Notes under the pieces: model-generated | Databases searched by the model: none | The model's input: only the letters and a program-made list of their open reading frames with translations | What the model was told of the DNA's origin: nothing | Source of the DNA: a virus | Virus genome (UHGV): UHGV-0349885 | Strand: one strand, 5' to 3' | Length of the DNA: 19,119 nt | Made by a program: the position numbers and the translations under genes | In this document: in pieces, positions 786 through 15,348 of the stretch | Numbering within the stretch: position 1 is the first letter of the stretch | How the letters are laid out: the number at the start of each line of letters is the position of its first letter

Positions 786-985
786 TTTTTGCGGGTCCTT
801 TCCGGCGATCCGGGCCGTTACGGGGCGGCGACCTCGCGGTTTTTCACTATTTATGAAAATTTTTCAGGGAAAATCGTGTCGGTACTTCTCGAATATAACT
901 TTTTGTTTTTTTTTATATTGCATCCGTAAAGGTCCGACATGAAAGTGTCCGAAAATGCCTTTTTCTGGCGTTTTCATGTCGGGCC
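786..985 (+). other. Prophage cos site (lambda-type): cosQ-like GGGTCCTTTCCGG at 793-805, cosN GGGCGGCGACCT at 823-834, I2-like CGCGGTTTTTCACTATTTATGA, then cosB with inverted repeat CCGACATGAAA (934-944) / TTTCATGTCGG (972-982)
   Basis: Near-identical to the lambda cos junction as recalled from memory (acgggtcctttccgg...ttacg|gggcggcgacctcgcgggttttcgctatttatga); lies immediately upstream of the Nu1-like gene, as in lambda. Confidence 0.85.
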
Positions 986-1010
986 TTGTATTTGATAATG
1001 GGTTGTTTTC

Positions 1011-1559
1011 ATGAAGGTTAATAAAAAGAGGCTTGCCGAAATTTTCAACGTGGACCCGCGGACGATTGAACGCTGGCAGTCTCAGGGACTCCCTTGCGCC
1101 TCCAAAGGTAGTAAGGGCATTGAATCTGTATTTGATACTGCCATGGCAATTCAGTGGTATGCGCAGAGGGAAACTGATATCGAAAACGAAAAGCTCCGCA
1201 AAGAACTGGACGATTTGCGTGCGGCAGCGGAGTCAGATTTACAACCCGGCACCATTGACTATGAACGCTACCGGCTCACAAAAGCGCAGGCAGATGCGCA
1301 GGAACTGAAAAATGCCCGTGAAGACGGAGTAGTGCTGGAAACTGAACTGTTTACCTTCATTCTGCAACGTGTGGCACAGGAGATTTCGGGGATACTTGTG
1401 CGTGTGCCGTTGACATTACAGCGTAAATATCCGGACATTTCACCATCACACCTTGATGTGGTGAAAACTGAAATCGCGAAAGCCTCCAATGTTTCAGCTA
1501 AGGCCGGTGAAAACGTGGGCGGGTGGATCGATGATTTCAGACGCGCAGAAGGCAGCTAA
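1011..1559 (+). CDS. Nu1: Terminase small subunit, lambda Nu1-like
   Basis: 182 aa; N-terminus [28 protein letters not shown] closely matches the lambda Nu1 N-terminal winged-HTH (MEVNKKQLADIFGASIRTIQNWQEQGMP, from memory); directly downstream of cos; 3' end overlaps the next gene's start as in lambda. Confidence 0.9.
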
Positions 1560-2513
1560 TGCAGCCGGTGCGATAGCAACAGGGCTTTTATCTCTCATTA
1601 TTCCTGTTCCACTGACGACAGTTCAGTGGGCCAATAAACATTATTACCTTCCTAAAGAGTCGTCTTATACCCCGGGGCGGTGGGAAACACTGCCGTTTCA
1701 GGTTGGCATCATGAACTGTATGGGCAACGATTTGATTCGCACTGTTAACCTGATTAAATCTGCCCGTGTTGGTTATACAAAGATGTTGCTGGGAGTGGAG
1801 GCTTATTTTATTGAGCATAAATCACGCAACAGCCTTCTTTTTCAGCCCACGGACTCAGCTGCTGAAGATTTTATGAAATCTCATGTTGAGCCAACGATAA
1901 GGGAGGTTCCTGCGTTGCTGGAGCTGGCTCCATGGTTCGGAAGAAAACACCGCGATAATACGCTCACCCTGAAGCGTTTTTCCTCCGGTGTGGGTTTCTG
2001 GTGTCTGGGGGGAGCGGCAGCAAAAAACTACCGTGAAAAATCCGTGGATGTGGTCTGTTATGACGAGCTTTCCTCGTTCGAACCGGATGTTGAAAAAGAG
2101 GGTTCGCCAACCCTGCTGGGGGATAAACGTATTGAGGGCTCTGTATGGCCCAAATCCATTCGCGGCTCGACTCCTAAAATCAAAGGCTCCTGCCAGATCG
2201 AAAAAGCCGCTAACGAGTCGGCACACTTCATGCGTTTTTATGTGCCCTGTCCGCACTGTGGGGAGGAGCAGTATCTGAAATTTGGCGATGAGTCCACGCC
2301 TTTTGGGCTTAAATGGGAGAAGGACAGCCCCGAAAGCGTTTTCTACCTCTGTGAGCATCATGGCTGCGTGATCCATCAGTCTGAACTGGACCAGAGTAAC
2401 GGGCGGTGGATCTGTGAAAACACGGGCATGTGGACCCGTGACGGCCTGACGTTTTTCAGCGCTGCGGGTAATGAAATTCCGCCGCCGCGCTCCATCACTT
2501 TCCATATCTGGAC
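1531..2513 (+). CDS. A: Terminase large subunit (lambda gpA-like), N-terminal 327 codons, interrupted by insertion; in the integrated state the frame reads on into element DNA to a stop at 2757
   Basis: ATG at 1531 overlapping the Nu1 end; strong similarity to lambda gpA ([20 protein letters not shown], Walker-A-like [41 protein letters not shown]); similarity stops at HIWT (about 2513) where the integrase-proximal element sequence begins. Confidence 0.85.
2503..2513 (+). repeat. attL core: left copy of 11-bp direct repeat CATATCTGGAC
   Basis: Identical 11-mer at 14392-14402; both copies encode H-I-W-T of the terminase at the points where terminase homology breaks and resumes. Confidence 0.75.
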
Positions 2514-2683
2514 TATGCAATCATTATCTTTCATTGCCGTTTCTTTTTGTGTTTCTTCTTATTCAATAAGTTGCGGTTTCTTCAATTGTGTGCATTGTTC
2601 CTTTTTTTTCGCTTTTTTATCGCCAGTATTCTGGCAAAAGGAACCAGCGCATGGACTAGAAAAATTTGTATTGGAGTGCTTGT

Positions 2684-3916: not shown

Positions 3917-3922
3917 GGCAAT

Positions 3923-4132: not shown

Positions 4133-4140
4133 TTGATATA

Positions 4141-4164
4141 CCCCGCGCAATGCGGGGTTTTTTG
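4141..4164 (+). terminator. Rho-independent terminator after alpA
   Basis: Hairpin CCCCGC-gcaat-GCGGGG (4141-4157) followed by TTTTTT. Confidence 0.7.
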
Positions 4165-4178
4165 TATATGAGGTAAAA

Positions 4179-4760: not shown

Positions 4761-5040
4761 CCACACGCGGTGCTGATTATACGGTACATCGTGTTAACCG
4801 AGAAGCTACCCACCAGCAAGGCAAAATCTTCTGCTAAAAAATGACATATGACCAGTCGTCCAGAAAGCATGAAATTTTACAAAAATGGAAAATGAAGATT
4901 TTTATTGTGCTAGTGGGTAAAAACAAAAAGCGCCCCGTTGCCGGAGCGCCCTTGCGAACAATTAACCTGCTGCGAAAAAATTGGATCAGTGCAAGGAAAT
5001 TATATCAACTGTGTGAAGAAGCGCCACAATTGCCGGATAA

Positions 5041-5073
5041 CAGGCAAAGAAAAGGCCACCTGTCACGGTGGCC
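5041..5073 (-). terminator. Minus-strand rho-independent terminator
   Basis: Perfect 7-bp stem GGCCACC/GGTGGCC (5054-5060 / 5067-5073) with 6-nt loop; on the minus strand it is followed by TTTTCTTTG; it lies downstream of the minus-strand regulator gene. Confidence 0.5.
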
Positions 5074-5392
5074 CTTCAACACAAATTGCGCGTTATCCCC
5101 AACGCATGAGCATCGCCAACAATGCCATATTTGCGGCTGGTGGGCAAAGCCTGAGCGATCCTGTGATTACAGGAACTACGGCATTGTCTCGGTTAGGTAG
5201 TGCTCAACTTTTTTTCAACTCTACATCGCAAGCACGCCGTAATAAATCGCCCTTATCGTTTGAGCAAAGACTATTTTTCTCAAAGCATGATATTAAGAGA
5301 AAGATTGTGATAATTAAAGCAACCATCATTGGTACATGTTTTTTTAATTTTAACATCTTTTACTCCTATGATTATCGCCATCGTTCTTCATG

Positions 5393-5590
5393 TTATGACG
5401 TGATTAATGATTTCTCGGATTCACTGGCCTTGCGCCGCTGGCGATATTCAACTTCTCGTTTTAATGCCGCAGTAACAAATTGCCCCGTACTTTCGCCAGG
5501 CATTTTTACCGCCTCAACATTGTTCATAACTTCATGCGGAACCCTTGCCGCAACGGTTTGTGATTTTGCGTTTACTGCTTTTGTCGCCAT
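5393..5590 (-). CDS. Small putative DNA-binding regulator (candidate repressor of the element; possibly ribbon-helix-helix-like)
   Basis: 65 aa, ATG at 5590 with GAGGGG SD; divergently oriented from the operator/promoter cluster at 5641-5692. Fold assignment is by eye only. Confidence 0.5.
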   Translation of the reverse strand: MATKAVNAKSQTVAARVPHEVMNNVEAVKMPGESTGQFVTAALKREVEYRQRRKASESEKSLITS

Positions 5591-5640
5591 GTGGTGTACC
5601 CCTCATAAAAAACAAATGCAGTATGCAGGAAAAAAAATAA

Positions 5641-5692
5641 GTGTTCAACACTTGACGTGTTTAACACCTGGGTTTAAATTGGTGTTCAACAC
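5641..5692. promoter_or_regulatory. Divergent promoter/operator region: three palindromic operators GTGTTCAACAC (5641-5651), GTGTTTAACAC (5657-5667), GTGTTCAACAC (5682-5692) overlapping a rightward sigma70-like promoter (-35 TTGACG 5652-5657, 17-bp spacer, -10 TAAATT 5675-5680)
   Basis: Three copies of an 11-bp perfect palindrome GTGTT-N-AACAC seen directly; they sit between the minus-strand regulator gene and the plus-strand early operon. Confidence 0.6.
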
Positions 5693-5789
5693 CTTGTTGG
5701 CGCAAGGTGCAGAAACGACGAAACCCGGCAGTGCGCTAACACTAACCGGGCTTCTAACCACCAACGATAGCGAAAGTATCGAGGCAGCT

Positions 5790-5993
5790 ATGAGAAATCA
5801 TACCACACACCCGCAAGGGCGGGACTCGCACGACCTGAATAAATACATCTGGCGTTTTATCGCCCTGAGCACGGCACAACCGCGCGTGATTACCATCGAG
5901 GCCACCAGCGAACAGGAAGCGCGTCAGCAATCTCCGGCTGGCTGCGTGATGGTATTCGCTGCCCGTATTCGCCAGGGGTCACATCATGCGTAA
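5790..5993 (+). CDS. Small early protein, Icd-like (P4 host cell-division inhibitor family) by motif
   Basis: ATG 5790 with GAGG SD 5 nt upstream; 67 aa; motif YIWRFIALS...RVITIEATSEQEARQQ...VFAARIRQG recalled as characteristic of Icd-like proteins of P4-type elements. Family assignment from memory only. Confidence 0.5.
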   Translation: MRNHTTHPQGRDSHDLNKYIWRFIALSTAQPRVITIEATSEQEARQQSPAGCVMVFAARIRQGSHHA

Positions 5994-6447
5994 AAACCGC
6001 TTGCAAAAAATTATCACGGGGCTGTATGCTTCCCCCGTCGCCCACATGGCGACCGGGTTTGACAGCCTGAATACATCTGGCGGACAGCCGCCCACATCCG
6101 ATAAGCGGTTTTTTTGTGTCCGTAAACCTACCCATACCCGCATTATGGCGGGGCGTAACGGGGGAGCCTTTGTGCTCGCTGGTTTCCAGATGACCAGTCT
6201 GTCAACCCTGTTACGTCTCGCCACCATGTTTGACAGCGTAGTAGCGAGACTCCTTAAAATTCATCTGGGAGCCTTTCACATGGCTGTATCCGCACGCCCT
6301 TATTTTGTCTGGCGCTTTATGCAGTGCCTGACAGACAGCATTGCAATATTCACCGTTACCGCTGCCACTGAGCGCGAAGCACGTGCACAGCTGCCGCACG
6401 CACATCTGATTTTTGTCGCCCGTATTCGTCAGGGGGTAGGCTTATGA
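5986..6447 (+). CDS. Icd/Ash-like paralog (153 aa) carrying the same C-terminal motif
   Basis: Start overlaps the previous stop; C-terminus YFVWRFMQCLTDSIAIFTVTAATEREARAQLPHAHLIFVARIRQG is a clear paralog of the 5790-5993 product. Confidence 0.5.
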   Translation: MRKNRLQKIITGLYASPVAHMATGFDSLNTSGGQPPTSDKRFFCVRKPTHTRIMAGRNGGAFVLAGFQMTSLSTLLRLATMFDSVVARLLKIHLGAFHMAVSARPYFVWRFMQCLTDSIAIFTVTAATEREARAQLPHAHLIFVARIRQGVGL

Positions 6448-6677
6448 GTCAGGAAATCACACTACAACAGGCAGCAGAACGCGCCCACCAAATCGAAGTT
6501 ATTTGCGCACTGGCAGAGGATTACCCTGGCATGATGACCGACAGCGAATCAGGGGCAATCATCGGCTTACTTAAACGCCTTAGCGGTGAGGTCTGCGTAT
6601 TCCTGAGCGATGAACAGGAAAGAAGAACGCTTATTTCTAACGAAAAAAAATGCGGAGGGGTACACCATGTGCAATAA
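6444..6677 (+). CDS. Hypothetical small protein (77 aa), translationally coupled in early operon
   Basis: ATG overlaps the preceding stop (ATGA); GGGGG SD upstream; no recognisable family. Confidence 0.5.
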   Translation: MSQEITLQQAAERAHQIEVICALAEDYPGMMTDSESGAIIGLLKRLSGEVCVFLSDEQERRTLISNEKKCGGVHHVQ

Positions 6678-6888
6678 CATCCGTCCGGACGCAGCAGCCG
6701 CCGCGCTCACTACGCTGATGCACGCGCTTATCGATATTGAATGCACTGCAGAGCTTGCGCAGGGAGAAGAACAGAAAGACCGGACACAGTTCGCCCTGGA
6801 ATGTATCCGATACATCGCAACGCGGTCGCTGAATGAAGCTAAAAATATTCTTGTTGCTGATTGTGAAAATGGGGGGGGTTATGCGTGA
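6667..6888 (+). CDS. Hypothetical small protein (73 aa from ATG 6667; ORF track offers an upstream start at 6610)
   Basis: Strong SD GGAGGGG 7 nt upstream of ATG 6667; stop overlaps the next start in the 8-mer ATGCGTGA. Confidence 0.45.
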   Translation: MCNNIRPDAAAAALTTLMHALIDIECTAELAQGEEQKDRTQFALECIRYIATRSLNEAKNILVADCENGGGYA

Positions 6889-7114
6889 TGATCGTTTTAA
6901 TTCCCTGAAACAGGAATTTTCCGGCGTTCCTGATGATGCGGCTGATGCGCTTTCGTCAATGCCAGAACTTATTAGAGCGGCTTTTTTCTTACTTTCCACG
7001 AGAGAATATAAATCAACGGGGCTTGATGTACTGAATATCGCCGCCGATTATGCGGAATATGTGGCAGAGGCGCGTTATAGAAGAAAATTTCCTGAGGATG
7101 TAAGCCATGCGTGA
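6881..7114 (+). CDS. Hypothetical small protein (77 aa, MRDDRFNSLKQEF...)
   Basis: ATG 6881 inside the overlap 8-mer ATGCGTGA; acidic and helical; no recognisable family. Confidence 0.45.
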   Translation: MRDDRFNSLKQEFSGVPDDAADALSSMPELIRAAFFLLSTREYKSTGLDVLNIAADYAEYVAEARYRRKFPEDVSHA

Positions 7115-7268
7115 TATTTACCACGAAACAATAGACCGCGCATTTCTTGCACTTTCTCACAGTGAAAACATGCTGGAAATATTGCGCATATGGCTTGAAA
7201 CACTTGGCGACAATGAACGCGACAAACAAAAAATCAAGAATTGCCACGGCATTAATAACGCTTCTTGA
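7107..7268 (+). CDS. Hypothetical small protein (53 aa, MRDIYHETIDRAFLALSHSENMLEILRIWLETLGDNERDKQKIKNCHGINNAS)
   Basis: ATG 7107 again inside an ATGCGTGA overlap with the preceding stop (7112-7114); translated by hand; competes with ORF-track 7147-7341, which needs a TTG start. Confidence 0.3.
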   Translation: MRDIYHETIDRAFLALSHSENMLEILRIWLETLGDNERDKQKIKNCHGINNAS

Positions 7269-7346
7269 GCCTGTAATAATGGAACTGCAAGAAATAGATC
7301 TATTGCACGACAGATATAAAGAACAGCACACCGGAGAATAAAAATA

Positions 7347-7646
7347 ATGAAACTTAAATATTCTGGCTTAACTGCCAGTGGCAACACTCACCCTAAATTT
7401 ACGCGCGGCGATATTTACCGCGACCAGTACGGCGGCACGGTAATGATTAAGGGCGTGGAAGAACGGCGCGTAACCTACCGCCGTGAAGGTTACGAATATG
7501 ATTGCGTGATGCCTGTTTATCAGTTCCGGCGTGATTTTTCTCTGGTACAGACCGCGCCGCATAACGTGTCCACCAGCAACGCCAGGGCACGGGCAAACAT
7601 CCAGAAGCTGAAAACCATGATTAACGGATTCAGGGGTAAAAAATGA
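7347..7646 (+). CDS. Hypothetical protein (99 aa) immediately upstream of and coupled to the primase gene
   Basis: ATG 7347 with GGAG upstream; stop overlaps the primase ATG (ATGA); no recognisable family. Confidence 0.5.
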   Translation: MKLKYSGLTASGNTHPKFTRGDIYRDQYGGTVMIKGVEERRVTYRREGYEYDCVMPVYQFRRDFSLVQTAPHNVSTSNARARANIQKLKTMINGFRGKK

Positions 7647-9397
7647 AACTGGCACCGAACGTAAAACAGCAGTCACGCGGCATAAAACACAAAGAAACAG
7701 AAGTCATTATTTTTGCGGGTAGTGATGCCTGGTCACACGCAAAACAATGGCAGGAACATGACGCGCGTATGGCCGGAGATAATGAGCCTCCTGTGTGGCT
7801 TGGGGAGCAGCAGTTATCCGAACTGGATAAGCTGCAAATTGTGCCGGAAGGCAGAAAATCCGTGCGCATATTCAGGGCCGGATATCTTGCGCCAGTAATG
7901 ATAAAGGCGATTGGTCAGAAGCTGGCGGCGGCAGGCGTACAGGATGCAAATTTTTACCCTGATGGTATGCACGGTCAGAAGGTGGAGAACTGGCGCGAAT
8001 ATCTGGCCCGTGAGCGCCAGAATCTTTCTGATGGTCTGGTCATTGAGCTTCCGGTAAAGCAAAAGGCGCAACTTTCGCAGATGGCGGACAGTGAGCGCGC
8101 GCAGCTGCTTGCCGATCGCTTTGATGGCGTTTGCGTACATCCTGAAAGTGAAATCGTTCACGTATGGCGCGGCGGGGTATGGTGTCCGGTCAGCACAATG
8201 GAACTTAGCCGCGAAATGGTGGCGATCTATTCAGAGCACAGGGCCACTTTCAGCAAGCGCGTAATCAATAACGCCGTGGAAGCGTTAAAAGTTATTGCCG
8301 AACCAATGGGCGAGCCGTCCGGCGATTTGTTGCCGTTCGCCAATGGTGCGCTTGACCTGAAAACGGGGGAATTTTCCCCGCACACGCCGGAGAACTGGAT
8401 CACCACGCACAACGGCATTGAGTACACGCCACCAGCACCAGGGGAGAACATCCGCGATAACGCGCCAAACTTTCATAAATGGCTTGAGCACGCAGCCGGA
8501 AAAGACCCGCGCAAGATGATGCGTATATGTGCCGCGCTGTACATGATTATGGCGAACCGGTACGACTGGCAGATGTTTATTGAGGCCACCGGAGACGGCG
8601 GGAGCGGTAAAAGTACATTCACACACATAGCCAGCCTTCTGGCAGGGAAACAGAACACGGTAAGCGCTGAAATGACATCGCTTGATGATGCTGGTGGACG
8701 TGCGCAGGTTGTCGGGAGTCGTCTTATCGTCCTGGCTGACCAGCCGAAATATACAGGCGAAGGAACGGGCATCAAGAAAATCACGGGCGGTGACCCCGTG
8801 GAAATTAACCCGAAATACGAAAAGCGTTTCACGGCGGTAATCAGGGCGGTGGTGCTGGCGACCAACAATAACCCGATGATATTCACCGAACGGGCCGGAG
8901 GTGTGGCACGTCGTCGCGTGATTTTCCGTTTCGACAATATCGTCAGTGAGGCCGAAAAAGACAGGGAGCTACCGGAAAAGATCGCGGCTGAAATCCCTGT
9001 CATTATCCGCCGATTGCTGGCGAACTTTACCGACCCTGAGAAGGCACGGGCTTTACTACTGGAACAGCGTGACGGTGATGAAGCTCTGGCAATAAAGCAA
9101 CAGACGGATCCGGTTATTGAGTTTTGCCAGTTCCTGAATTTTCTGGAGGAAGCGCGCGGCCTGATGATGGGGGGCGGTGGCGATTCAGTGAAGTACACGA
9201 CCAGGAACAGCCTTTACCGCGTCTATCTGGCGTTTATGGCATACGCAGGCAGGAGCAAACCGCTAAACGTAAATGACTTTGGCAAGGCTATGAAGCCAGC
9301 CGCGAAAGTTTACGGACATGAATATATTACGCGGAAAGTTAAGGGAGTAACGCAGACTAACGCAATAACAACAGACGATTGCGACGCGTTTTTATAA
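7643..9397 (+). CDS. Replication initiator: DNA primase / SF3-type NTPase (P4-alpha / D5 family C-terminal domain)
   Basis: 584 aa; Walker A EATGDGGSGKSTF, then RLIVLADQPKY and KKITGGDPVEINPKYEKRFTAVIRAVVLATNNNPMIF typical of the phage/plasmid primase P4-family C-terminal domain; the iteron origin lies directly downstream. Confidence 0.85.
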   Translation: MKLAPNVKQQSRGIKHKETEVIIFAGSDAWSHAKQWQEHDARMAGDNEPPVWLGEQQLSELDKLQIVPEGRKSVRIFRAGYLAPVMIKAIGQKLAAAGVQDANFYPDGMHGQKVENWREYLARERQNLSDGLVIELPVKQKAQLSQMADSERAQLLADRFDGVCVHPESEIVHVWRGGVWCPVSTMELSREMVAIYSEHRATFSKRVINNAVEALKVIAEPMGEPSGDLLPFANGALDLKTGEFSPHTPENWITTHNGIEYTPPAPGENIRDNAPNFHKWLEHAAGKDPRKMMRICAALYMIMANRYDWQMFIEATGDGGSGKSTFTHIASLLAGKQNTVSAEMTSLDDAGGRAQVVGSRLIVLADQPKYTGEGTGIKKITGGDPVEINPKYEKRFTAVIRAVVLATNNNPMIFTERAGGVARRRVIFRFDNIVSEAEKDRELPEKIAAEIPVIIRRLLANFTDPEKARALLLEQRDGDEALAIKQQTDPVIEFCQFLNFLEEARGLMMGGGGDSVKYTTRNSLYRVYLAFMAYAGRSKPLNVNDFGKAMKPAAKVYGHEYITRKVKGVTQTNAITTDDCDAFL

Positions 9398-9410
9398 TTT
9401 TTTGCAATGG

Positions 9411-9640
9411 CTGTCTACCCTGTCTACCTGAGTAAAGAAAAATACATTTAATTCAGTATATTAACTTAGGTAGACAGCCTTTTTTCACTGTCTACCTACT
9501 ATCTACCCTCTCTACCTGATTTTACCTGAATCAGACAGGGAGGTAGATACGGGGTAGATAGTGGATAAAAGCACTCTACCCCGCTGAAAGCCGCGCCATT
9601 ACTGGCATGAGAGCCAGTAAGGTAGATAAGGTAGACAAGG
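9411..9640. repeat. Iteron-type replication origin: about 11 copies of TCTACC / GGTAGA (6 forward, 5 reverse) in AT-rich context
   Basis: Forward copies at 9414, 9423, 9491, 9502, 9511, 9575; reverse copies at 9469, 9542, 9553, 9621, 9630; immediately 3' of the primase gene, the usual ori position in PICI/SaPI-like elements. Confidence 0.75.
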
Positions 9641-9685
9641 GGAGGCACAACTCAAAACTTTTTAAACGAGGGGGTAAAAATAAAA

Positions 9686-9943
9686 ATGCGCACATCAGGA
9701 AAACTTAATAATCAGAAGAAGCAGCATAACCGCGCCATTGACCTTACAGAGCACTGGCTGAGAGTGGCGATAAAAATCATCGACCGCAACACGGGGGAAG
9801 GATACGCGAAAGCACATCCCGACCTGATAAGCGCATTCATGACCACGGCGGCGGCAAACTTTGCCACGCTGACAGAACGGGAGATTGCCGAAGCGGAACA
9901 GGTAACAACCATCAACGTTAAAACCGGAGAGGTGGAATCATGA
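9686..9943 (+). CDS. Hypothetical protein (85 aa)
   Basis: ATG 9686 with GAGGGGG SD; stop overlaps the SSB-like start; no recognisable family. Confidence 0.5.
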   Translation: MRTSGKLNNQKKQHNRAIDLTEHWLRVAIKIIDRNTGEGYAKAHPDLISAFMTTAAANFATLTEREIAEAEQVTTINVKTGEVES

Positions 9944-10362
9944 CAGCACAGATAGCAGCTTACGGGCGGCTGGTGGACGACCCGCAGGTAAAACAGACCA
10001 GCAAGGGCACACCAATGACGCTGGCACGTATGGCGGTATCGTTGCCATGTAGTCAGGCGCAGGATGGGCAGGCTACGTTATGGCTATCGGTGATGGCATT
10101 TGGCAGACAGGCCGAAGCACTGGAAAGGCACCGCAAGGGTGAACTCCTGAGCGTGGCGGGTAACATGCAGATCAGCCAGTGGACTGGGCAGAACGGAGAA
10201 ACGCGGCAGGGCTGGCAGGTTATCGCAGACAGTGTAATCAGTGCGCGAACGGCGCGACTGGGCGGCAAAAAAGGTCAACTGGGCCAGGCTACTGACGCGC
10301 TGAACAGGGCAAAACAACAGGCGGGGAATGATGATCCGTACGGGGATAACATACCGTTTTAA
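9940..10362 (+). CDS. ssb: Single-stranded DNA-binding protein (SSB-like)
   Basis: 140 aa; OB-fold-like N-terminal region aligns by eye with E. coli SSB (LVDDPQVKQTSKGTPMTLARMAVS / LWLSVMAFGRQAEALERHRKGELLSVAGNMQISQWT); C-terminal acidic tail ends DDPYGDNIPF, like the SSB DDDIPF tail. Confidence 0.8.
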   Translation: MTAQIAAYGRLVDDPQVKQTSKGTPMTLARMAVSLPCSQAQDGQATLWLSVMAFGRQAEALERHRKGELLSVAGNMQISQWTGQNGETRQGWQVIADSVISARTARLGGKKGQLGQATDALNRAKQQAGNDDPYGDNIPF

Positions 10363-10377
10363 GCGACGAGTGACAGA

Positions 10378-10400
10378 AGCCGGAGCAATCCGGCTTTTTT
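10378..10400 (+). terminator. Rho-independent terminator after ssb
   Basis: Stem GCCGGA/TCCGGC (10379-10384 / 10389-10394), loop GCAA, T-run 10395-10400. Confidence 0.65.
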
Positions 10401-10448
10401 ACGGGTCCTCCTGGCGGGGTGGGCCTGAACACGGGGCGGGAGGCGCGG
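10401..10448 (+). other. Degenerate cos-like remnant (cosQ-like ACGGGTCCTCCTGG ... ACGGGGCGGGAGGCGCGG) lacking an intact cosN 12-mer
   Basis: Aligns with the cosQ/cosN region of the three intact cos sites, but GGGCGGCGACCT is replaced by GGGCGGGAGGCG; preceded by the same terminator-then-cosQ arrangement as at 12818-12857. Confidence 0.4.
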
Positions 10449-10580
10449 AAAAAAGCGCATTTTTGTGATTTTATCGTCATCATCATCATGAGCGTAATTT
10501 ATTGTTTTTAATTGTTTTGATGCAAAAAAGATGATGGTTGTGGTTAATTTTTGTTCGACATCTTTGCAGGCAGATAAAAA

Positions 10581-10616
10581 AGCCCGATAAGGTCAGAGGT
10601 GGCTTATCGGGCTTTT
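10581..10616. terminator. Strong hairpin with flanking A- and T-runs (possible bidirectional terminator)
   Basis: Perfect 11-bp stem AGCCCGATAAG/CTTATCGGGCT (10581-10591 / 10603-10613), preceded by AAAAAA and followed by TTTT. Confidence 0.5.
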
Positions 10617-10692
10617 GCATATGAGGCTTTTTGGTGCACTGACACACATGATCGGGATAATCATTTCATAATTTGCAACACAACTCAATATC

Positions 10693-10742
10693 ATTGCACA
10701 AAATGCAATACTGATTATAATCAGAGCTGGATGAACATCCAG
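10693..10742 (+). promoter_or_regulatory. Candidate promoter of the element capsid operon with three palindromes: ATTGCA-N5-TGCAAT (10693-10709), TGATTATAATCA (10713-10724), CTGGATG-AA-CATCCAG (10727-10742); -35 TTGCAC 10694-10699, -10 TATAAT 10716-10721
   Basis: Consensus -10 with 16-bp spacer seen directly; palindromes overlap the -35, -10 and +1 regions; AAGAGGAA SD and ATG 10778 follow. Confidence 0.4.
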
Positions 10743-10777
10743 TTATGATTTTTTAAGTCAAAGAGGAATTTCTTACT

Positions 10778-10984
10778 ATGGCTGAAGAGAAAAAAGGCGG
10801 TGTTTCGGTGTACATAAGCCCCGACATCGTAAAGGCGCTCAAGGAACGCCACCAGCAGAACGTAAAAGCAGGCATTGCGGCAGGACTTGATCCGCTGGCG
10901 ATGGTTGAGCCGTCAACAGGCTGGCAGGTACGCGCCTATTTACGCGCGGCGCTGGGTATGAATCAGGTTCACGGGGGTGAATAA
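10778..10984 (+). CDS. Hypothetical small protein (68 aa), first gene of the element capsid module
   Basis: ATG 10778 with AAGAGGAA SD; stop overlaps the capsid-gene start (TAATG); no recognisable family. Confidence 0.5.
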   Translation: MAEEKKGGVSVYISPDIVKALKERHQQNVKAGIAAGLDPLAMVEPSTGWQVRAYLRAALGMNQVHGGE

Positions 10985-12039
10985 TGACAGGCAAAGCAAC
11001 GGCACTTAACACTAACCAGCTTTTCATGTACCTGAATCGCGGGGATATTGCGGATTTTAAATTCAACCCTCTGTTTACTACGCTGTTTTTCCCGAACGTG
11101 GCGACATTCAGCACGCAAAACATCATGCTGGATACCCTGGACATTGAAGAAGTCACCATGTCGGCGTTTTGTTCGCCTATGGTTGGCAGCCAGGTACAGC
11201 GCGATAAAGGGTACGAAACCAGCACAATTAAACCTGGCTACATGAAGCCAAAGCACGAAATCGATCCAACAAAAACCATCATGCGCATGGCTGGAGAAGA
11301 TCCGGCACAGCTTAACGACCCTACCTACCGCCGTATGCGCCTGATTACTGGCAACATGCGCCGCCAGGTAAACGCCATTAAAGCGCGCGTGGAATGGCTG
11401 GCGGTGAATGCGATAACGACCGGAAAAAACATCATTGAGGGCGAAGGCATAGAACGCTATGAAATCGACTGGAAAATACCGGAAAACTGCATCATAGAGC
11501 AGGCCAAGGGTAAAAAATGGTCCGAGCAGGATAAAGACATGCACGACCCAATCTATGACATCGAGCTTTATGCTGATCAGGCTGGTTGCCCCGCAAACGT
11601 CATGATTATGGGCGCTGAGGTATGGCGCACGTTACGCAGCTTTAAAAAATTCCGTGAGCTGTACGATCTTTCCCGTGGTTCAGAGTCCGCCGCCGAACTG
11701 GCCTGTAAAAACCTGGGCGAAGTGGTGAGCTTTAAAGGCTATCTGGGCGATATTGCCCTTATCGTCTATTCCGGCAAATACACTGACAGCGACGGCACAG
11801 AAAAATATTTCCTTGAGCCTGATTTGCTGGTTCTGGGCAACACCAACAATAAAGGGCTGGTGGCCTATGGTGCGATTATGGATCAGGACGCAGTAAGAAC
11901 GGGCGCAACGCAAAACATGTTTTACCCGAAAAACTGGATTGGGGACGGCGATCCGGCGATTGAGTACGTGCAGACGCACAGCGCACCGCAGCCGGTTCCG
12001 GCAGATATTCGTAAATTTGTTACCGTCAAAATTGGTTAA
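10984..12039 (+). CDS. Major capsid protein homolog (lambda gpE-like), element-encoded and diverged from the prophage copy
   Basis: 351 aa; matches lambda gpE (from memory) at FKFNPLFTTLFF (lambda FKFDPLFLRLFF), PGYMKPKHEIDP (PGYVKPKHEVNP) and C-terminal YPKNW..GDPA...SAP; N-terminus differs from the prophage gpE start at 19064. Confidence 0.85.
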   Translation: MTGKATALNTNQLFMYLNRGDIADFKFNPLFTTLFFPNVATFSTQNIMLDTLDIEEVTMSAFCSPMVGSQVQRDKGYETSTIKPGYMKPKHEIDPTKTIMRMAGEDPAQLNDPTYRRMRLITGNMRRQVNAIKARVEWLAVNAITTGKNIIEGEGIERYEIDWKIPENCIIEQAKGKKWSEQDKDMHDPIYDIELYADQAGCPANVMIMGAEVWRTLRSFKKFRELYDLSRGSESAAELACKNLGEVVSFKGYLGDIALIVYSGKYTDSDGTEKYFLEPDLLVLGNTNNKGLVAYGAIMDQDAVRTGATQNMFYPKNWIGDGDPAIEYVQTHSAPQPVPADIRKFVTVKIG

Positions 12040-12050
12040 CGGGGGATTCT

Positions 12051-12386
12051 ATGGACACTCCATACATTGAGTTATTTGCAGGCAGTCAGCAGGTCGCCAC
12101 GACGCTGGTACATTTTGCCGCTGATGCTGGCGTTATTCAGGAATTTACCCCGCTGATGCTGGCGGACAATGGCGAGTTTAAGCCGTGGGATGGTAAGGAA
12201 TCTGGCAAGGCTGTTTATCTGACCTCGTACCCTGTGGACACGTCAAAGCAGAAATCAGCACAGTGTTACAAGACGGGGATATTCAATATTGCCGCCGTTA
12301 ACTGGCCTGAGAGCGTCGACACCGATGCGAAAAAATGCGCCGCCTTTGCGGGTTCTGGCGTATCCGTTCAGCCGCTGGCCCGATAA
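12051..12386 (+). CDS. Head decoration protein homolog (lambda gpD-like), element-encoded
   Basis: 111 aa; shares TPLML..WDG..YKTGxF..WPES..KK.AAFAGS with lambda gpD and with the prophage gpD at 18659-19006. Confidence 0.75.
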   Translation: MDTPYIELFAGSQQVATTLVHFAADAGVIQEFTPLMLADNGEFKPWDGKESGKAVYLTSYPVDTSKQKSAQCYKTGIFNIAAVNWPESVDTDAKKCAAFAGSGVSVQPLAR

Positions 12387-12398
12387 GCAGGGGGAACG

Positions 12399-12812
12399 AT
12401 GGCAACGAATGAAAGCATCATGACGCTACCGCTGGCGAGTAAATTTAAAGCCGAAGCGCGGGCAATGGCTGACAGAGGTTTATCAACCTATGAGGCCGTA
12501 TATCAACTAAACAAACTGGAAGAGCAGGACAAGCCGCGCGCTGATGCGATTATGGCGCTTGATGAATCTGGCGACTATCAGCCGCTGTTACGTGCAATGG
12601 CAAACGTGCCTTGTATCGATGTTGGTACGGCTAAAAGCATCCTTAGCATGACCATAGAGCAGGAACGTCCGAAGGTTGCGCCGGAACTTACTGCAGCCTT
12701 TGAAAACTTTATGGACATGCACAGCCCGCAAGCCGTATCAGCTGGCATGGCATACGATGGCAGAAACCAGGGCGATGACGGCGACATCGATCGCATACTG
12801 AAAACCATCTGA
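12399..12812 (+). CDS. Scaffold-like protein (Nu3 / gpC C-terminal-domain homolog), element-encoded; candidate capsid-size-redirecting scaffold
   Basis: 137 aa; C-terminus TAAFENFMDMHSPQAVSAGMAYDGRNQGDDGD parallels the prophage gpC-Nu3 C-terminus TALFEHFMANHSPAAVRGGVSQTSADGDAD; middle region resembles one of the internal repeats of the prophage protein. Confidence 0.6.
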   Translation: MATNESIMTLPLASKFKAEARAMADRGLSTYEAVYQLNKLEEQDKPRADAIMALDESGDYQPLLRAMANVPCIDVGTAKSILSMTIEQERPKVAPELTAAFENFMDMHSPQAVSAGMAYDGRNQGDDGDIDRILKTI

Positions 12813-12817
12813 GACAA

Positions 12818-12842
12818 GGCCGGAGAAATCCGGCTTTTTTTT
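12818..12842 (+). terminator. Rho-independent terminator after the element capsid module
   Basis: Stem GCCGGA/TCCGGC (12819-12824 / 12829-12834), loop GAAA, eight-T run 12835-12842. Confidence 0.65.
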
Positions 12843-12966
12843 ATGGGTCCTTTCCGGCATATGGACCCGTTACGGGGCGGCGACCTCGCGGGTTTTCGCT
12901 ATTTATGACGTTTTTCCGTGAAGGTGACACCACCACCACTTGATTAATATTTAACCATGCGGTTAA
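12843..12966 (+). other. Element cos site A (forward): cosQ-like GGGTCCTTTCCGG 12845-12857, cosN GGGCGGCGACCT 12875-12886, I2-like CGCGGGTTTTCGCTATTTATGA, divergent cosB with TTAACC-atgc-GGTTAA
   Basis: About 75-bp core near-identical to the prophage cos and to lambda cos; flanking cosB differs from the prophage cosB; lies directly upstream of the Nu1-like gene at 12976. Confidence 0.85.
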
Positions 12967-12975
12967 GGTAACATT

Positions 12976-13416
12976 ATGATTGATAAAGCTTGTTTTGTAA
13001 GTCAGCAGGAAATAGCTGAACATTTCAAGGTTAACAGAACCACTATTCGCGCATGGACCAAACAGGGGATGCCGTATCTTAATGCGGATCGCGGAAAGTC
13101 TGGCGGTTATCACATCGGGCATACATTGCTTTGGTCTTCAGGTAAAAGCCGTCTTGAGGCCATCAGATATCACGTAGAAACCAGTGCGCTGGAAAAAATT
13201 ATGTTTGCCAGGCTGCTTTCATCTGAGCGTGACGAGTACTCCAGTGAAGAAACAGAACATCGATTTGATGAAGGTTTGCAGATTTACGGCTATTCACCGG
13301 AAGATGTGAGCAAGGCACGAAATAAAATGGCTGGCTTTCTGGCTGGGTGGCGTCATGCCGTAAGCGTTCGCCGTGCCAGCATGGAACAATCAGTCGTTAC
13401 AGAACAGCAAAGTTAA
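12976..13416 (+). CDS. Terminase-small-subunit-like protein (Nu1 N-terminal wHTH homolog with unrelated C-terminus); candidate packaging-redirection factor
   Basis: 146 aa; N-terminus VSQQEIAEHFKVNRTTIRAWTKQGMPYLNADRGKSGG aligns with prophage Nu1 [34 protein letters not shown]; positioned just 3' of cos-A, as Nu1 is relative to cos. Confidence 0.7.
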   Translation: MIDKACFVSQQEIAEHFKVNRTTIRAWTKQGMPYLNADRGKSGGYHIGHTLLWSSGKSRLEAIRYHVETSALEKIMFARLLSSERDEYSSEETEHRFDEGLQIYGYSPEDVSKARNKMAGFLAGWRHAVSVRRASMEQSVVTEQQS

Positions 13417-13445
13417 AAATCACTTTCTGTTACGCCATCAAATAC

Positions 13446-13597
13446 GCAATACAACAACCACGTATTTTTTTAAAACTATTTGATTCAATTAGCATTTTTT
13501 TATTTTTAGCATCAAAAAAACACTATCAGGTTGTTGTATTGCTCTTTATTTTTACTTAGTTATCAAATGGATATGACAAACAATTAAACAACAACCT
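13446..13597. repeat. Perfect 14-bp inverted repeat GCAATACAACAACC (13446-13459) / GGTTGTTGTATTGC (13529-13542) around a 69-bp AT-rich spacer, plus a third ACAACAACC copy (13589-13597); candidate cosB R-elements of cos-B
   Basis: Repeats read directly from the sequence; they occupy the cosB side of the inverted cos-B in an R3 / AT-rich / R2 / R1-like layout. Confidence 0.5.
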
Positions 13598-13610
13598 CCC
13601 TCTAAAAAAG

Positions 13611-13680
13611 CTCATAAATAGCGAAAAACCGCGAGGTCGCCGCCCCGTAACGGGCCATAATTCCAGGAAGGACCCGACGA
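13611..13680 (-). other. Element cos site B (inverted orientation): cosN reverse-complement AGGTCGCCGCCC at 13634-13645, I2-like 13611-13633, cosQ-like GGAAGGACCC 13666-13675
   Basis: Reverse complement matches the cosQ-cosN-I2 core of cos-A and the prophage cos almost base for base. Confidence 0.8.
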
Positions 13681-13709
13681 CACCAGACTATCAGAGCGAT
13701 GGGGGCACA

Positions 13710-13991
13710 ATGACAGAAGCCGAACTACTGGGATTAATCCGCCGCGTTACCGGAATCAGCCAGCAGCATGACGAACAGGCCACACAGCCGGACAGCGTGA
13801 CAGCCGAAAATTACGCGCGTGTTGTTGCTGAGGTGATGCGCCGTGATGGTATCCAGCTTAATGATATGGATATGCGCAACATACGGATCCGCGTTCTTGA
13901 AATGCTGGCCTACAATCGCCGCGTGGCACTGTATCGTGAAACGGAGAAAATTACGTACCACTGGAAGAAGCCGGAGCGGTTACGGCGTTAA
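13710..13991 (+). CDS. Hypothetical protein (93 aa)
   Basis: ATG 13710; no recognisable family; followed immediately by the GTGAC repeat array. Confidence 0.45.
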   Translation: MTEAELLGLIRRVTGISQQHDEQATQPDSVTAENYARVVAEVMRRDGIQLNDMDMRNIRIRVLEMLAYNRRVALYRETEKITYHWKKPERLRR

Positions 13992-13997
13992 CTTGTG

Positions 13998-14041
13998 GTG
14001 ACATACCGTGACGGGAGTGACAACCAGTGACACACAGTGAC
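13998..14041. repeat. Array of five GTGAC(A) direct repeats at 9-10 bp spacing (starts 13998, 14008, 14017, 14027, 14037)
   Basis: Seen directly; helical phasing suggests same-face binding of one protein; the reverse complement TGTCACT resembles the lambda Int arm-type consensus (AGTCACTAT, from memory). Confidence 0.5.
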
Positions 14042-14391
14042 AAAAAAAGACGGTATTTAAATAGGGTGGGTGTTTAATACCCTAGGGGGATCGGAATCCC
14101 TACACCCCATTGCTTATGAGACCGCATTCCCCGTCAAATTTTTACACCCGCGAAATTAAAAAAATGCGTCACGCTGGTGGGTGTGATGCTGATATGGGGA
14201 TTTCCATAACCGAGATTAAGCAAAGAGCAAACTTGCCCCCTGTAGCCAAACATAGTAACCATCTAAGCCCCTTTTTTATCTTAATTTAGCTGATTTTTCC
14301 GTGTTTATACGGACTAGAATTTGTACCAAACGCAAAAGCGATGTCTTCTTTATTCCTTTAAATTCAATTTATTATCTTGCTTGTTTGCTTT

Positions 14392-14402
14392 CATATCTGG
14401 AC
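14392..14402 (+). repeat. attR core: right copy of 11-bp direct repeat CATATCTGGAC
   Basis: Identical to 2503-2513; terminase homology resumes exactly here (HIWTAYSPFTTWVQIV). Confidence 0.75.
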
Positions 14403-15348
14403 GGCGTACAGTCCGTTCACCACCTGGGTACAGATTGTCTATGACTGGCTGGATGCACTGAAAGATCCCAACGGCCTGAAAACCTTTGTGAACACCACGC
14501 TGGGCGAGACCTGGGAAGAGGCTGTGGGCGAAAAAATCGATCACCAGGTACTGATGGATAAGGTTGTGCGTTACACGGCGGCGGTGCCTGCCCGGGTGGT
14601 TTATCTGACGGCGGGCATTGACTCGCAGCGAAACCGTTTTGAGATGTATGTCTGGGGATGGGCTCCGGGAGAGGAAGCCTTTCTGGTGGATAAAATCATC
14701 ATTATGGGGCGTCCCGATGAGGAAGAGACGCTGTTACGTGTGGATGCGGCGATCAACAAAAAATACCGCCATGCAGACGGAACCGAAATGACTATTTCCC
14801 GTGTCTGCTGGGACATCGGGGGGATCGATGGCGAAATCGTTTATCAGAGGTCAAAAAAACACGGTGTTTTCCGGGTGCTGCCGGTAAAAGGCGCATCTGT
14901 CTATGGCAAGCCGGTGATCACCATGCCAAAAACCCGCAATCAGCGGGGCGTGTATCTGTGTGAAGTGGGGACGGACACCGCAAAAGAAATTCTCTATGCC
15001 CGTATGAAAGCCGATCCCACGCCTGTGGATGAAGCCACGTCGTATGCCATCCGTTTTCCTGATGATCCGGAGATTTTTTCGCAGACAGAGGCGCAGCAAC
15101 TGGTCGCGGAAGAGCTTGTGGAGAAGTGGGAAAAAGGAAAGATGCGTCTGCTGTGGGATAACAAAAAGCGGCGTAACGAAGCGCTGGACTGCCTGGTGTA
15201 TGCCTACGCGGCATTACGTGTGTCCGTGCAACGCTGGCAGCTTGATCTGGCTGTACTGGCAAAATCCCGGGAAGAAGAGACGACCCGGCCAACCCTGAAA
15301 GAACTGGCAGCGAAGCTGTCCGGAGGAGTGAATGGTTACAGTCGCTGA
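14392..15348 (+). CDS. A: Terminase large subunit (lambda gpA-like), C-terminal 315 codons downstream of the insertion; the ORF track extends it to an in-frame TTG at 14377 inside element DNA
   Basis: Colinear with lambda gpA C-terminal half (FHIWTAYSPFTTWVQIV, FVNTTLGETWE, YLTAGIDSQ, RVCWDIGGID, SKKHGVFRVLPVKGASVYGKP, EVGTDTAKE, KRRNEALDCLVYAYAALR); the N part plus this part total 642 codons, against lambda gpA 641 aa. Confidence 0.85.
   Translation, partial: HIWTAYSPFTTWVQIVYDWLDALKDPNGLKTFVNTTLGETWEEAVGEKIDHQVLMDKVVRYTAAVPARVVYLTAGIDSQRNRFEMYVWGWAPGEEAFLVDKIIIMGRPDEEETLLRVDAAINKKYRHADGTEMTISRVCWDIGGIDGEIVYQRSKKHGVFRVLPVKGASVYGKPVITMPKTRNQRGVYLCEVGTDTAKEILYARMKADPTPVDEATSYAIRFPDDPEIFSQTEAQQLVAEELVEKWEKGKMRLLWDNKKRRNEALDCLVYAYAALRVSVQRWQLDLAVLAKSREEETTRPTLKELAAKLSGGVNGYSR

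What the first reader, a model, noticed from the sequence alone, without database searches (positions are those of the whole stretch)
12843..13416. cos-A plus Nu1-like gene: conserved cosN/I2 core with divergent cosB suggests redirected packaging specificity
cos-A shares an about 75-bp cosQ-cosN-I2 core with the prophage cos, but the cosB region where TerS binds is different: the prophage has CCGACATGAAA inverted repeats, cos-A has TTAACC/GGTTAA-type repeats. Directly downstream is a 146-aa protein whose N-terminal wHTH is homologous to Nu1 but whose C-terminus is unrelated. This is the layout expected if the satellite supplies a DNA-recognition subunit that steers helper terminase to its own cos.
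Basis: partly seen in the sequence, partly recalled or inferred. Interest (0 to 1): 0.7.

Follow-up and report, generated by a model that had tools for sequence, protein, structure and literature searches.

The report
Known RppA/cos1 satellite packaging module
This stretch is the already characterised packaging-hijack module of an E. coli phage satellite: a cos site with its own recognition sequence, followed by rppA, whose protein binds the helper phage's small terminase and redirects packaging to the satellite.

Summary
The sequence to its right is unrelated. A 146-aa ORF follows at 12976-13416.

The ORF is RppA. It is 142/144 identical to c1503 of the E. coli satellite EcCICFT073, and it matches the solved RppC structure (6HLK/6HN7) at E=5.7e-31. 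cos-A is EcCICFT073 cos1, with one base different in cosB.

Fillol-Salom et al. (2018, 2019) showed experimentally that RppA binds helper TerS. The complex no longer recognises the phage cosB and instead recognises the cosB of cos1.

One refinement. A block at 12928-12947 (CACCACCACCACTTGATTAA) is invariant or nearly so, even where cosN differs. It overlaps the "R3-PICI" site proposed by Murialdo and Feiss (2022).

The prophage carries the phage 21 packaging module. The satellite sits inside its large terminase gene, a published configuration called a helper-embedded PICI.

Items I found no description of: the second, inverted cos carries a complete phage-type cosB of another specificity class, and Rpp-less relatives show the inter-cos segment in both orientations.

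Verdict: real, correctly interpreted, already known.

The parts
12845..12851 (+). cosQ of cos-A (GGGTCCT)
   Evidence: Invariant in all 25 distinct Rpp-linked upstream regions and shared with the prophage cos and the inverted cos. The cosQ label follows Fig. S1A of PMC6739421.
12875..12886 (+). cosN of cos-A: the 12-nt cohesive-end sequence GGGCGGCGACCT, identical to lambda, phage 21 and the prophage copy
12887..12921 (+). Spacer between cosN and cosB (bp 13-47 from the nick), partly shared with phage cos sites (GCTATTTATGA)
12922..12947 (+). Candidate Rpp recognition element ('R3-PICI'). It covers bp 48-73 from cosN. The block 12928-12947 (CACCACCACCACTTGATTAA) is invariant or nearly so.
   Evidence: The block is conserved in 25 distinct loci with Rpp identity from 44% to 100%, including loci whose cosN differs. 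Murialdo and Feiss 2022 proposed R3-PICI at bp 48-65, with bp 55-63 identical in four islands. It lies inside the cosB region swapped experimentally.
12951..12966 (+). It varies among relatives.
   Evidence: EcCICFT073 has ...ATGCAGTTAA. Other loci have TTAATC..GATTAA. It is absent from L029 and L031.
12976..13416 (+). rppA, encoding the redirecting-phage-packaging protein (146 aa)
   Evidence: 142/144 identical to EcCICFT073 c1503. Matches RppC (PDB 6hlk/6hn7) at E=5.7e-31. R21-T22 are present.
13417..13603 (-). cosB of the inverted cos (cos2), 28% G+C. It has three GGTTGTTGT elements at 13588-13596 (-), 13529-13537 (+) and 13451-13459 (-). Read from cos2 these run direct, inverted, direct, like R3-R2-R1.
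   Evidence: The region aligns at 72-82% identity with the cos regions of phage contigs (six compared; those from contigs of known size are 41-50 kb), where a Nu1-family TerS gene follows.
13604..13676 (-). cos2 core (cosQ-cosN) in inverted orientation, with cosN at 13634-13645
   Evidence: (I1, I2). It corresponds to EcCICFT073 cos2.
786..988 (+). Prophage cos, phage 21 type: core 786-863, cosN 823-834, R3 872-887, R2 929-944, R1 972-988
   Evidence: The 188 nt from cosN to the terS start are 187/188 identical to phage 21, whose record annotates the R sites.
1011..1559 (+). Helper small terminase (TerS-21 / Nu1 family), the presumed partner of RppA
   Evidence: Pfam Phage_Nu1 at E=3e-81. Identical to phage 21 TerS. 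181/182 identical to the TerS of the CFT073 icd-side prophage.
2498..2513 (+). attL core of the satellite, inside prophage gene A (TerL)
14388..14402 (+). attR core of the satellite. The satellite spans 2514-14402 (11,889 bp).
   Evidence: Joining 1531-2513 to 14403-15348 gives an uninterrupted 642-aa gpA.

Best explanation
The region 12838-13416 is the cos1-rppA packaging module of an EcCICFT073-family phage-inducible chromosomal island (PICI).

cos-A keeps the helper-type cosQ and cosN, so the helper large terminase can cut and terminate there. In place of the helper's R3-I1-R2-R1 cosB, it has one short island-specific element at the R3 position. rppA begins 90 bp after cosN.

RppA has a Nu1-like winged-helix DNA-binding domain and its own dimerisation domain. 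It pairs with the N-terminal domain of the helper TerS in place of a second TerS. The mixed complex no longer recognises the phage cosB, so the helper is blocked. It does recognise the island cosB. TerS still brings TerL, so island concatemers are cut at cos-A and packaged.

Shown here: the identity of the protein, of cos-A and of the helper module.
Shown in the literature for a 99%-identical protein: TerS binding, helper blocking and cosB-dependent packaging.
Inferred: that the embedding phage-21-type prophage is the working helper, and that 12928-12947 is the base-specific contact site.
For: - Protein identity: 142/144 identical to RppA. Matches RppC structures 6hlk/6hn7 at E=5.7e-31 over residues 2-125.
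- cos identity: cos-A equals EcCICFT073 cos1 apart from one base.
- Gene context: the same as EcCICFT073 (capsid, decoration, 137-aa protein, cos1, rpp, cos2, 93-aa protein), at 94-97% DNA identity.
- Published experiments: RppA-TerS two-hybrid binding, TerS escape mutants, the RppC-TerS crystal structure, cos-plasmid transfer with and without RppA, cosB swaps and the R21A/T22A mutant (PMC6739421). cos1 deletion lowers transfer and a terS deletion abolishes it (PMC6092414).
- Helper compatibility: the window's TerS is identical to phage 21 TerS and 181/182 identical to the 21-type TerS of a CFT073 prophage. Murialdo and Feiss state that Rpps interact with the TerS-21 of CFT073 prophage 4.
- Contact residues: lambda TerS residues V3, I11, F12, A44, I47, Y50, A51 and E65, which contact Rpp or give escape when mutated, are unchanged in the window's TerS.
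- Comparative: 12928-12947 stays constant across 25 loci while cosN and the palindrome vary.
Against: - Nothing was tested experimentally on this exact element.
- Three TerS positions named in the papers differ from lambda: G13N, S43T and A55T.
- The invariant block overlaps a weak promoter-like match, GTGACA-16-AATATT at 12924-12951. Such matches are no more frequent here than in shuffled sequence, but conservation for rppA expression cannot be excluded.
- The embedded configuration is rare, in 2 of 5426 complete E. coli genomes, so it could be a dead end.
Confidence: 0.92

Rival explanations
1. RppA is functional, but the embedding phage-21-type prophage is not its productive helper. On this view the island is mobilised by other lambda/phi80-type phages, or through cos2 by phages of the GGTTGTTGT class. 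Insertion into gene A would then be an incidental or even disabling event.
For: - Only 2 of 5426 complete genomes carry this junction, while about 1850 carry the empty site.
- The cos2 cosB matches a different TerS class from the embedding prophage.
- TerS-21 differs from lambda at G13N, S43T and A55T.
Against: - The same TerS (181/182) belongs to a CFT073 prophage. CFT073 prophage 4, described as encoding a TerS-21, is the natural inducing helper of EcCICFT073.
- cosQ and cosN of cos-A match the prophage copy.
- In-silico excision restores gpA exactly.
- Helper-embedded PICIs were shown to excise after the composite element is induced (PMC10111431).
Confidence: 0.15
2. The 146-aa protein is mainly a MerR/BldC-like transcription regulator of island genes, and cos-A is only a captured phage cos used without any specificity change.
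For: Only generic HTH families match in Pfam and NCBIfam, all below their cut-offs: HTH_28, HTH_17, MerR_1 and BldC.
Against: - The protein is 99% identical to a protein whose packaging role was shown genetically and structurally.
- The cosB of cos-A has no phage R sequences.
Confidence: 0.02
3. RppA acts only by sequestering TerS (interference), and DNA recognition at cos-A is done by residual helper TerS rather than by the Rpp winged helix.
For: Purified lambda TerS binds DNA weakly and non-specifically. No direct Rpp-DNA binding assay is reported in the papers read.
Against: - The RppA R21A/T22A mutant keeps interference but loses promotion of island packaging.
- A phi80 chimera carrying the cos1 cosB was built and tested with and without RppA to test recognition of that cosB; the passage retrieved does not give its outcome.
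- The R3-position block is conserved together with the Rpp recognition-helix residues.
Confidence: 0.04

Closest known systems
RppA (c1503) and cos1 of E. coli PICI EcCICFT073 (Fillol-Salom et al. 2018 ISME J; 2019 Mol Cell)
   Same: - The protein is 142/144 identical.
- The cos1 sequence is identical except for one base in cosB.
- The flanking genes are the same, and a second inverted cos is present.
   Different: - The C-terminal tail differs: ...SVVTEQQS against ...SADTEQ (146 against 144 aa).
- The integrase and att site differ. This island sits in prophage gene A; EcCICFT073 sits in the chromosome next to phoQ.
- The cosB side of cos2 is unrelated.
RppC (PDB 6HLK) and the RppC-TerS(1-98) complex (6HN7)
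   Same: Same family, at 44% identity. The recognition-helix residues are conserved (S9-A14, R21-T23, R25-K29), as is the YGYSP motif in the dimerisation domain.
   Different: RppC is 153 aa and comes from another island. It binds lambda TerS more strongly than RppA does.
Lambda Nu1 and phage 21 TerS, with their cosB (R3-I1-R2-R1)
   Same: - A winged-helix N-terminal domain.
- The gene lies immediately downstream of cos.
- The recognition element sits about 50-65 bp from the nick.
   Different: - Rpp has no match to the rest of Nu1. Murialdo and Feiss argue that it lacks the C-terminal TerL-binding region.
- Its cosB has one element instead of three plus an IHF site.
Phage N15 cosB (single R3)
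   Same: A cosB consisting of one R3-positioned element, as Murialdo and Feiss point out.
   Different: N15 R3 is read by the phage's own TerS. Here a satellite protein paired with helper TerS reads it.
Helper-embedded PICIs (Tommasini, Mageeney and Williams 2023), e.g. 11capE in capsid gene E
   Same: The island lies inside a late gene of a lambdoid prophage and is co-oriented with it. Excision restores the gene. The island content is like EcCICFT073.
   Different: - The gene-A sites named in the parts of that paper I could read are in Terminase_1-family genes of Klebsiella. No entry for a GpA-type site or for this att core was found in the held supplements.
- The exact TGTATTGC motif is not at the expected attP positions.
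SaPI TerS plus Ppi (Gram-positive pac islands)
   Same: The outcome is the same: island DNA is packaged and the helper is blocked.
   Different: SaPIs use two proteins, their own TerS and an inhibitor of the phage TerS. Rpp does both jobs as one protein that needs the helper TerS.

Membership tests
Rpp (redirecting phage packaging) proteins | Sequence homology to RppA, RppB or RppC | tested here: met
   142/144 identical to RppA. E=5.7e-31 to RppC 6hlk. 44% identity in alignment A2.
Rpp (redirecting phage packaging) proteins | N-terminal winged helix with recognition-helix residues R21-T22 (needed for island packaging) | tested here: met
   Residues 19-27 read VNRTTIRAW, identical to RppA and conserved in RppC. 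PHROG 57 (TerS) matches residues 7-47.
Rpp (redirecting phage packaging) proteins | C-terminal dimerisation and TerS-contact domain (helices 3-6) | tested here: met
   Residues 1-139 are identical to RppA. The domain aligns with RppC through residue 125. No structure was computed here.
Rpp (redirecting phage packaging) proteins | Encoded next to an island cos that has helper-type cosQ/cosN but a non-phage cosB | tested here: met
   In all 33 loci with a full-length rpp, the gene has the same position and orientation between the 137-aa and 93-aa genes. In every locus that keeps the lambda-type cosN, that cosN lies 101 nt upstream of the rpp start.
Rpp (redirecting phage packaging) proteins | Binds helper TerS, blocks phage packaging and promotes island packaging | not testable with these tools
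   Shown for RppA of EcCICFT073. Here only the conservation of the TerS contact residues could be checked.
Gram-negative PICI (EcCICFT073 type) | Integrase, AlpA, primase/replication gene with adjacent repeats, size of about 10-20 kb, flanking att repeats, no terminase or tail genes | tested here: met
   - Integrase 2666-3916, AlpA 3923-4132, D5-type primase 7643-9397.
- Repeats at 9411-9517 (D7).
- 11,889 bp between the att cores.
- 94-97% DNA identity to EcCICFT073 over the replication and late zones.
Helper-embedded PICI (HE-PICI) | [quoted passage not shown] | tested here: met
   gpA is split at codon 328, between the ATPase and nuclease domains. The joined ORF is 642 aa and 98.1% identical to an intact gene. 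A complete genome shows the same arrangement.
Helper-embedded PICI (HE-PICI) | Doubled TGTATTGC motif about 81 bp upstream and 132 bp downstream of the attP centre | tested here: inconclusive
   Exact TGTATTGC occurs only at 13446-13453 and 13535-13542, inside the cos2 cosB and not near att. Degenerate copies (TGTATTGG, TGTATGTC) lie at about 2665-2686, read by eye.
Helper-embedded PICI (HE-PICI) | Integrase belongs to the HE-PICI integrase clade | not tested
Terminase small subunit, Nu1 family (PF07471) | Full-length Nu1 architecture, including the oligomerisation and C-terminal TerL-binding regions | tested here: not met
   Pfam Phage_Nu1 is not matched. Similarity is limited to about 36-45 N-terminal residues. 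The protein is therefore a TerS mimic, not a TerS.

The most novel reading that the evidence does not exclude
The two inverted cos cores may bracket an exchangeable and invertible packaging-specificity cassette.

- cos1 uses Rpp plus any TerS that Rpp can bind.
- cos2 is a complete phage-type cos whose R3-R2-R1 cosB is swapped between islands to match a particular helper TerS class. In this window it is the GGTTGTTGT class. In EcCICFT073 it is the CATGTCCGG class, which also occurs in a resident CFT073 prophage.
- An island would then have two helper ranges.
- Rpp-less relatives carry two phage-type cosBs, and their inter-cos segment occurs in either orientation.

This island may also mark a lambda-type gpA integration site that the published HE-PICI survey does not list. 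None of the four papers I read describes these points.
Probability: 0.35. Interest if true: 0.45.

Novelty: already known. Interest (0 to 1): 0.12.

Why it matters
The finding itself adds no new mechanism. It shows that Rpp-mediated terminase redirection can be recognised from sequence layout alone, which is a useful positive control for the scan.

The locus is still a compact natural example in which three things sit together:
- the helper's own cos and TerS (phage 21 type);
- the satellite's Rpp-dependent cos;
- a second satellite cos of a third specificity class.

The satellite also interrupts the helper's large terminase gene.

Two leads could interest people working on cos packaging specificity and satellite host range. 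Comparison of relatives narrows the candidate Rpp-binding element to 12928-12947. The cos2 observations suggest modular exchange of cosB.

Tried and rejected
- A genome-contig scan with an Rpp alignment returned only one distant Dokdonella locus. It was of no use for comparison, so IMG/VR and E. coli genomes were used instead.
- blastn of the cos2 cosB (13417-13610) against the phage collection found nothing. A spaced pattern search in viral contigs did find phage relatives.
- Rfam found no RNA family in 12700-14450.
- Promoter-like and terminator-like matches in 12700-13750 are no more frequent than in shuffles. The exception is the clear terminator at 12816-12837, which ends the upstream gene.
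- I considered whether the palindrome at 12951-12966 is the Rpp site. I rejected it as the primary candidate because it varies and is absent from the RppC-like loci.
- I considered whether the ORF on the opposite strand (12841-13122) is a gene. It has no family match and overlaps cos and rppA, so it is treated as spurious.
- I looked for inverted isomers among rpp-bearing islands and found none in 33 loci.
- I searched the HE-PICI paper's supplements for a GpA-type site or this att core and found nothing. One file was truncated when stored, so this is not conclusive.
- No structure prediction was run. At 99% identity to RppA and 44% to a solved structure it would add nothing.

Full report
**What is in the window**

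The 19.1-kb window is the late-gene end of a lambdoid prophage with a satellite inserted in it.

- Prophage genes, left to right: Rz, cos, Nu1, gene A, then W, B (portal), C (protease) and D.
- Gene A is split. Its ATPase half ends at 2513 and its nuclease half resumes at 14403.
- Between the halves lies an 11,889-bp element. It encodes an integrase, AlpA, a Bro-N protein, a D5-type primase, SSB, a lambda-E-like capsid protein, a D-like decoration protein and a 137-aa protein. Then come the region of the finding and a 93-aa protein.
- The same arrangement occurs in the complete genome of E. coli AREA_492, at 99.45% identity over the whole window.

**Checking the observation**

- The lambda cohesive-end sequence GGGCGGCGACCT occurs three times: 823-834 (+), 12875-12886 (+) and 13634-13645 (-). 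About 0.09 matches are expected by chance.
- The prophage copy and cos-A align at 82% over 78 nt, 786-863 against 12838-12915. This stretch covers cosQ (GGGTCCT), cosN and about 30 bp beyond it. To the right of that the two are unrelated.
- The prophage stretch from cosN to the start of its small terminase gene is 187/188 identical to phage 21. Its TerS is identical to phage 21 TerS.
- cos-A has the palindrome TTAACCATGCGGTTAA at 12951-12966.
- The 146-aa ORF starts at 12976, 90 bp after cosN.
- Its similarity to Nu1 is limited to the N-terminus. BLASTP gives 14/36 identical. PHROG 57 (TerS) matches residues 7-47 at E=4e-8. Pfam Phage_Nu1 is not matched.

**What it is**

- A search of solved structures gave RppC, "redirecting phage packaging protein C" (6HLK, and 6HN7 in complex with lambda TerS), at E=5.7e-31 over residues 2-125.
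- I fetched E. coli CFT073 and found the reference island EcCICFT073 next to phoQ. It has the same late-zone gene order.
- Its 144-aa protein between the two cos copies is RppA (c1503): the RppA residues printed in Fig. S1C of Fillol-Salom et al. 2019 match it. It is 142/144 identical to the window's protein; the only difference is the C-terminal tail.
- The upstream cos is the same as cos-A apart from one base, G in the window and A in CFT073, inside the palindrome.
- Figure S1A of Fillol-Salom et al. 2019 prints this upstream site as "cos1" and the inverted one as "cos2".
- The window's satellite is 94-97% identical to EcCICFT073 across the replication and late zones. It differs in the integrase end, in the stretch between rppA and cos2, and at the right end.

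**How it works**

The mechanism is published for a protein 99% identical to this one (PMC6092414, PMC6739421).

- EcCICFT073 has no terminase and needs the helper's TerS.
- Deleting cos1 lowers transfer. Deleting both cos sites abolishes it.
- RppA blocks lambda and phi80. Escape mutations map to TerS.
- RppA and RppC bind TerS in two-hybrid assays.
- In the RppC-TerS crystal, the Rpp winged helix takes the place of the second TerS DNA-binding domain.
- Expressing RppA lowers transfer of plasmids with a phage cos and raises transfer of plasmids with cos1. The effect follows the cosB region in swap constructs.
- RppA R21A/T22A still blocks the phage but no longer promotes island packaging.

The window's protein has R21-T22 and the whole recognition helix.

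Is the helper in this window compatible?

- Its TerS is 181/182 identical to the 21-type TerS of a CFT073 prophage.
- Murialdo and Feiss (PMC9026076) state that Rpps interact with the TerS-21 of CFT073 prophage 4, the natural inducing helper.
- In an alignment with lambda Nu1, positions V3, I11, F12, A44, I47, Y50, A51 and E65 are unchanged. G13, S43 and A55 are N, T and T.

The step I could not show is that the embedding prophage is the productive helper.

**Refining the cosB determinant**

I collected Rpp-linked loci from IMG/VR and from E. coli genomes. They gave 25 distinct upstream regions, with Rpp identity to the window from 44% to 100%.

- The block CACCACCACCACTTGATTAA (12928-12947, bp 54-73 from the first base of cosN) is invariant or nearly so.
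- This holds even in the six loci where the sequence at the cosN position is different (L026-L028, L031, L032, L034).
Some loci have TTAATC..GATTAA. It is imperfect in CFT073 and absent from L029 and L031.
- This agrees with Murialdo and Feiss, who proposed a single "R3-PICI" at bp 48-65. They noted that bp 55-63 are identical in four islands and compared the architecture with N15 cosB. In the window, bp 55-63 is 12929-12937.
- Caveat: a weak promoter-like match overlaps the block. Such matches are no more frequent here than in shuffled sequence.

**Context already in the literature**

- Here the att core is CTTTC(C)ATATCTGGAC, at 2498-2513 and 14388-14402.
- The insertion is at codon 328 of gpA.
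- Joining the flanks gives an uninterrupted 642-aa gpA, 98.1% identical to an intact CFT073 gene.
- Only 2 of 5426 complete E. coli genomes carry this junction. About 1850 carry the empty site.
- The gene-A sites named in the parts of that paper I could read are in Terminase_1-family genes. I found no GpA-type site or this core in the held supplements, one of which is truncated.
- The capsid (c1499) and decoration (c1500) genes were noted in 2018 and had no phenotype.

**Things outside the finding that I did not find described**

- Read from its own cosN, cos2 has three GGTTGTTGT elements arranged direct, inverted, direct, at roughly the positions of R3, R2 and R1.
- This 200-bp stretch aligns at 72-82% with the cos regions of six phage contigs; those from contigs of known size are 41-50 kb. 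There, a Nu1-family TerS follows, starting MAFLLNKSDMA and 36% identical to lambda Nu1.
- EcCICFT073 cos2 instead has CATGTCCGG elements. It is 87% identical over 153 nt to the cos of the CFT073 prophage on the potB side, whose TerS has yet another N-terminus.
- So cos2 looks like a complete phage-type cos of a specificity class that differs between islands. In this window it matches neither the embedding prophage nor lambda.
- Eight relatives lack rpp except for a 22-codon remnant. The two I examined in sequence (L043 and L053) carry both phage-type cosBs back to back between the inverted cos cores.
- In these two, the 512-bp inner segment is 99.6% identical but in opposite orientation, with identical flanks.
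- All 33 loci with a full-length rpp keep one orientation.
- Either homologous recombination between the inverted cores, or cutting at both cosN sites and rejoining, would give such inversions. Cutting leaves both ends of the inner fragment with the same overhang. This is inference.

**Verdict**

It rediscovers the RppA/cos1 system, so its novelty is "already known" and its interest is low. The cos2 and inversion observations are modest leads, recorded separately.

Noticed in passing
window 13417-13676 (- strand): The second, inverted cos (cos2) has a full phage-type cosB. It has three GGTTGTTGT elements arranged direct, inverted, direct, and is 72-82% identical to the cos regions of six phage contigs (41-50 kb where the contig size is known) whose TerS begins MAFLLNKSDMA. 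This class differs from lambda, from phage 21 and from the EcCICFT073 cos2.
   Followed up: partly
L003:43080-43345 (-) versus L003:3490-3740: The cosB of EcCICFT073 cos2 (CATGTCCGG repeats) is 87% identical over 153 nt to the cos of the CFT073 prophage on the potB side, whose TerS begins VATQTEVARH. The 2018 and 2019 papers called the island cosBs unrelated to phage cosB.
   Followed up: partly
L043:8955-9490 versus L053:9800-10335: These are Rpp-less relatives with two phage-type cosBs between inverted cos cores. The 512-bp inner segment is 99.6% identical but inverted between the two contigs, and the flanks are identical. Among seven such loci whose cosB strand could be read, four have one orientation and three the other. 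All 33 rpp-bearing loci keep one orientation.
   Followed up: partly
window 2498-2513 and 14388-14402; gene A at 1531-2513 and 14403-15348: The satellite is inserted at codon 328 of the prophage large terminase gene, between the ATPase and nuclease domains. In-silico excision restores a 642-aa ORF. Only 2 of 5426 complete E. coli genomes have this junction. This lambda-type gpA site was not found among the HE-PICI sites I could read in PMC10111431.
   Followed up: partly
L026, L027, L028, L031, L032, L034 (about 100 nt upstream of rpp): These Rpp-linked cos sites keep cosQ and the R3-position block but have a different sequence at the cosN position, for example GGGGGTACGTGTACGCGC. This suggests islands adapted to helpers with other cohesive ends while keeping the Rpp recognition element.
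   Followed up: no
window 12399-12812: The 137-aa protein upstream of cos-A matches PHROG 1999 (unknown function). It also weakly matches the C-terminal part of head maturation proteases (phrog_53 positions 495-567, E=1e-8). That is the region which yields the Nu3 scaffold in lambda. The island may therefore carry scaffold, capsid and decoration genes.
   Followed up: no
window 9411-9517: Repeats of CTGTCTACC-like units lie just after the primase gene. They are probably the island replication origin (family D7).
   Followed up: no
window 13446-13453 (-) and 13535-13542 (+): The only exact copies of TGTATTGC in the window lie inside the cos2 R-like elements, not near the att sites. TGTATTGC is the core of the motif reported at HE-PICI attP arms.
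   Followed up: no
window 6610-7114: Two overlapping ORFs (6610-6888 and 6833-7114) correspond to a gene annotated as frameshifted in AREA_492. The neighbouring genes are annotated there as Icd-like cell-division inhibitors.
   Followed up: no
window 2380-2680 versus H78-H80: Three other E. coli genomes share the satellite's left end (window 2509-2680) at 96% identity but without the gpA flank. This suggests the same integrase module at another site.
   Followed up: no
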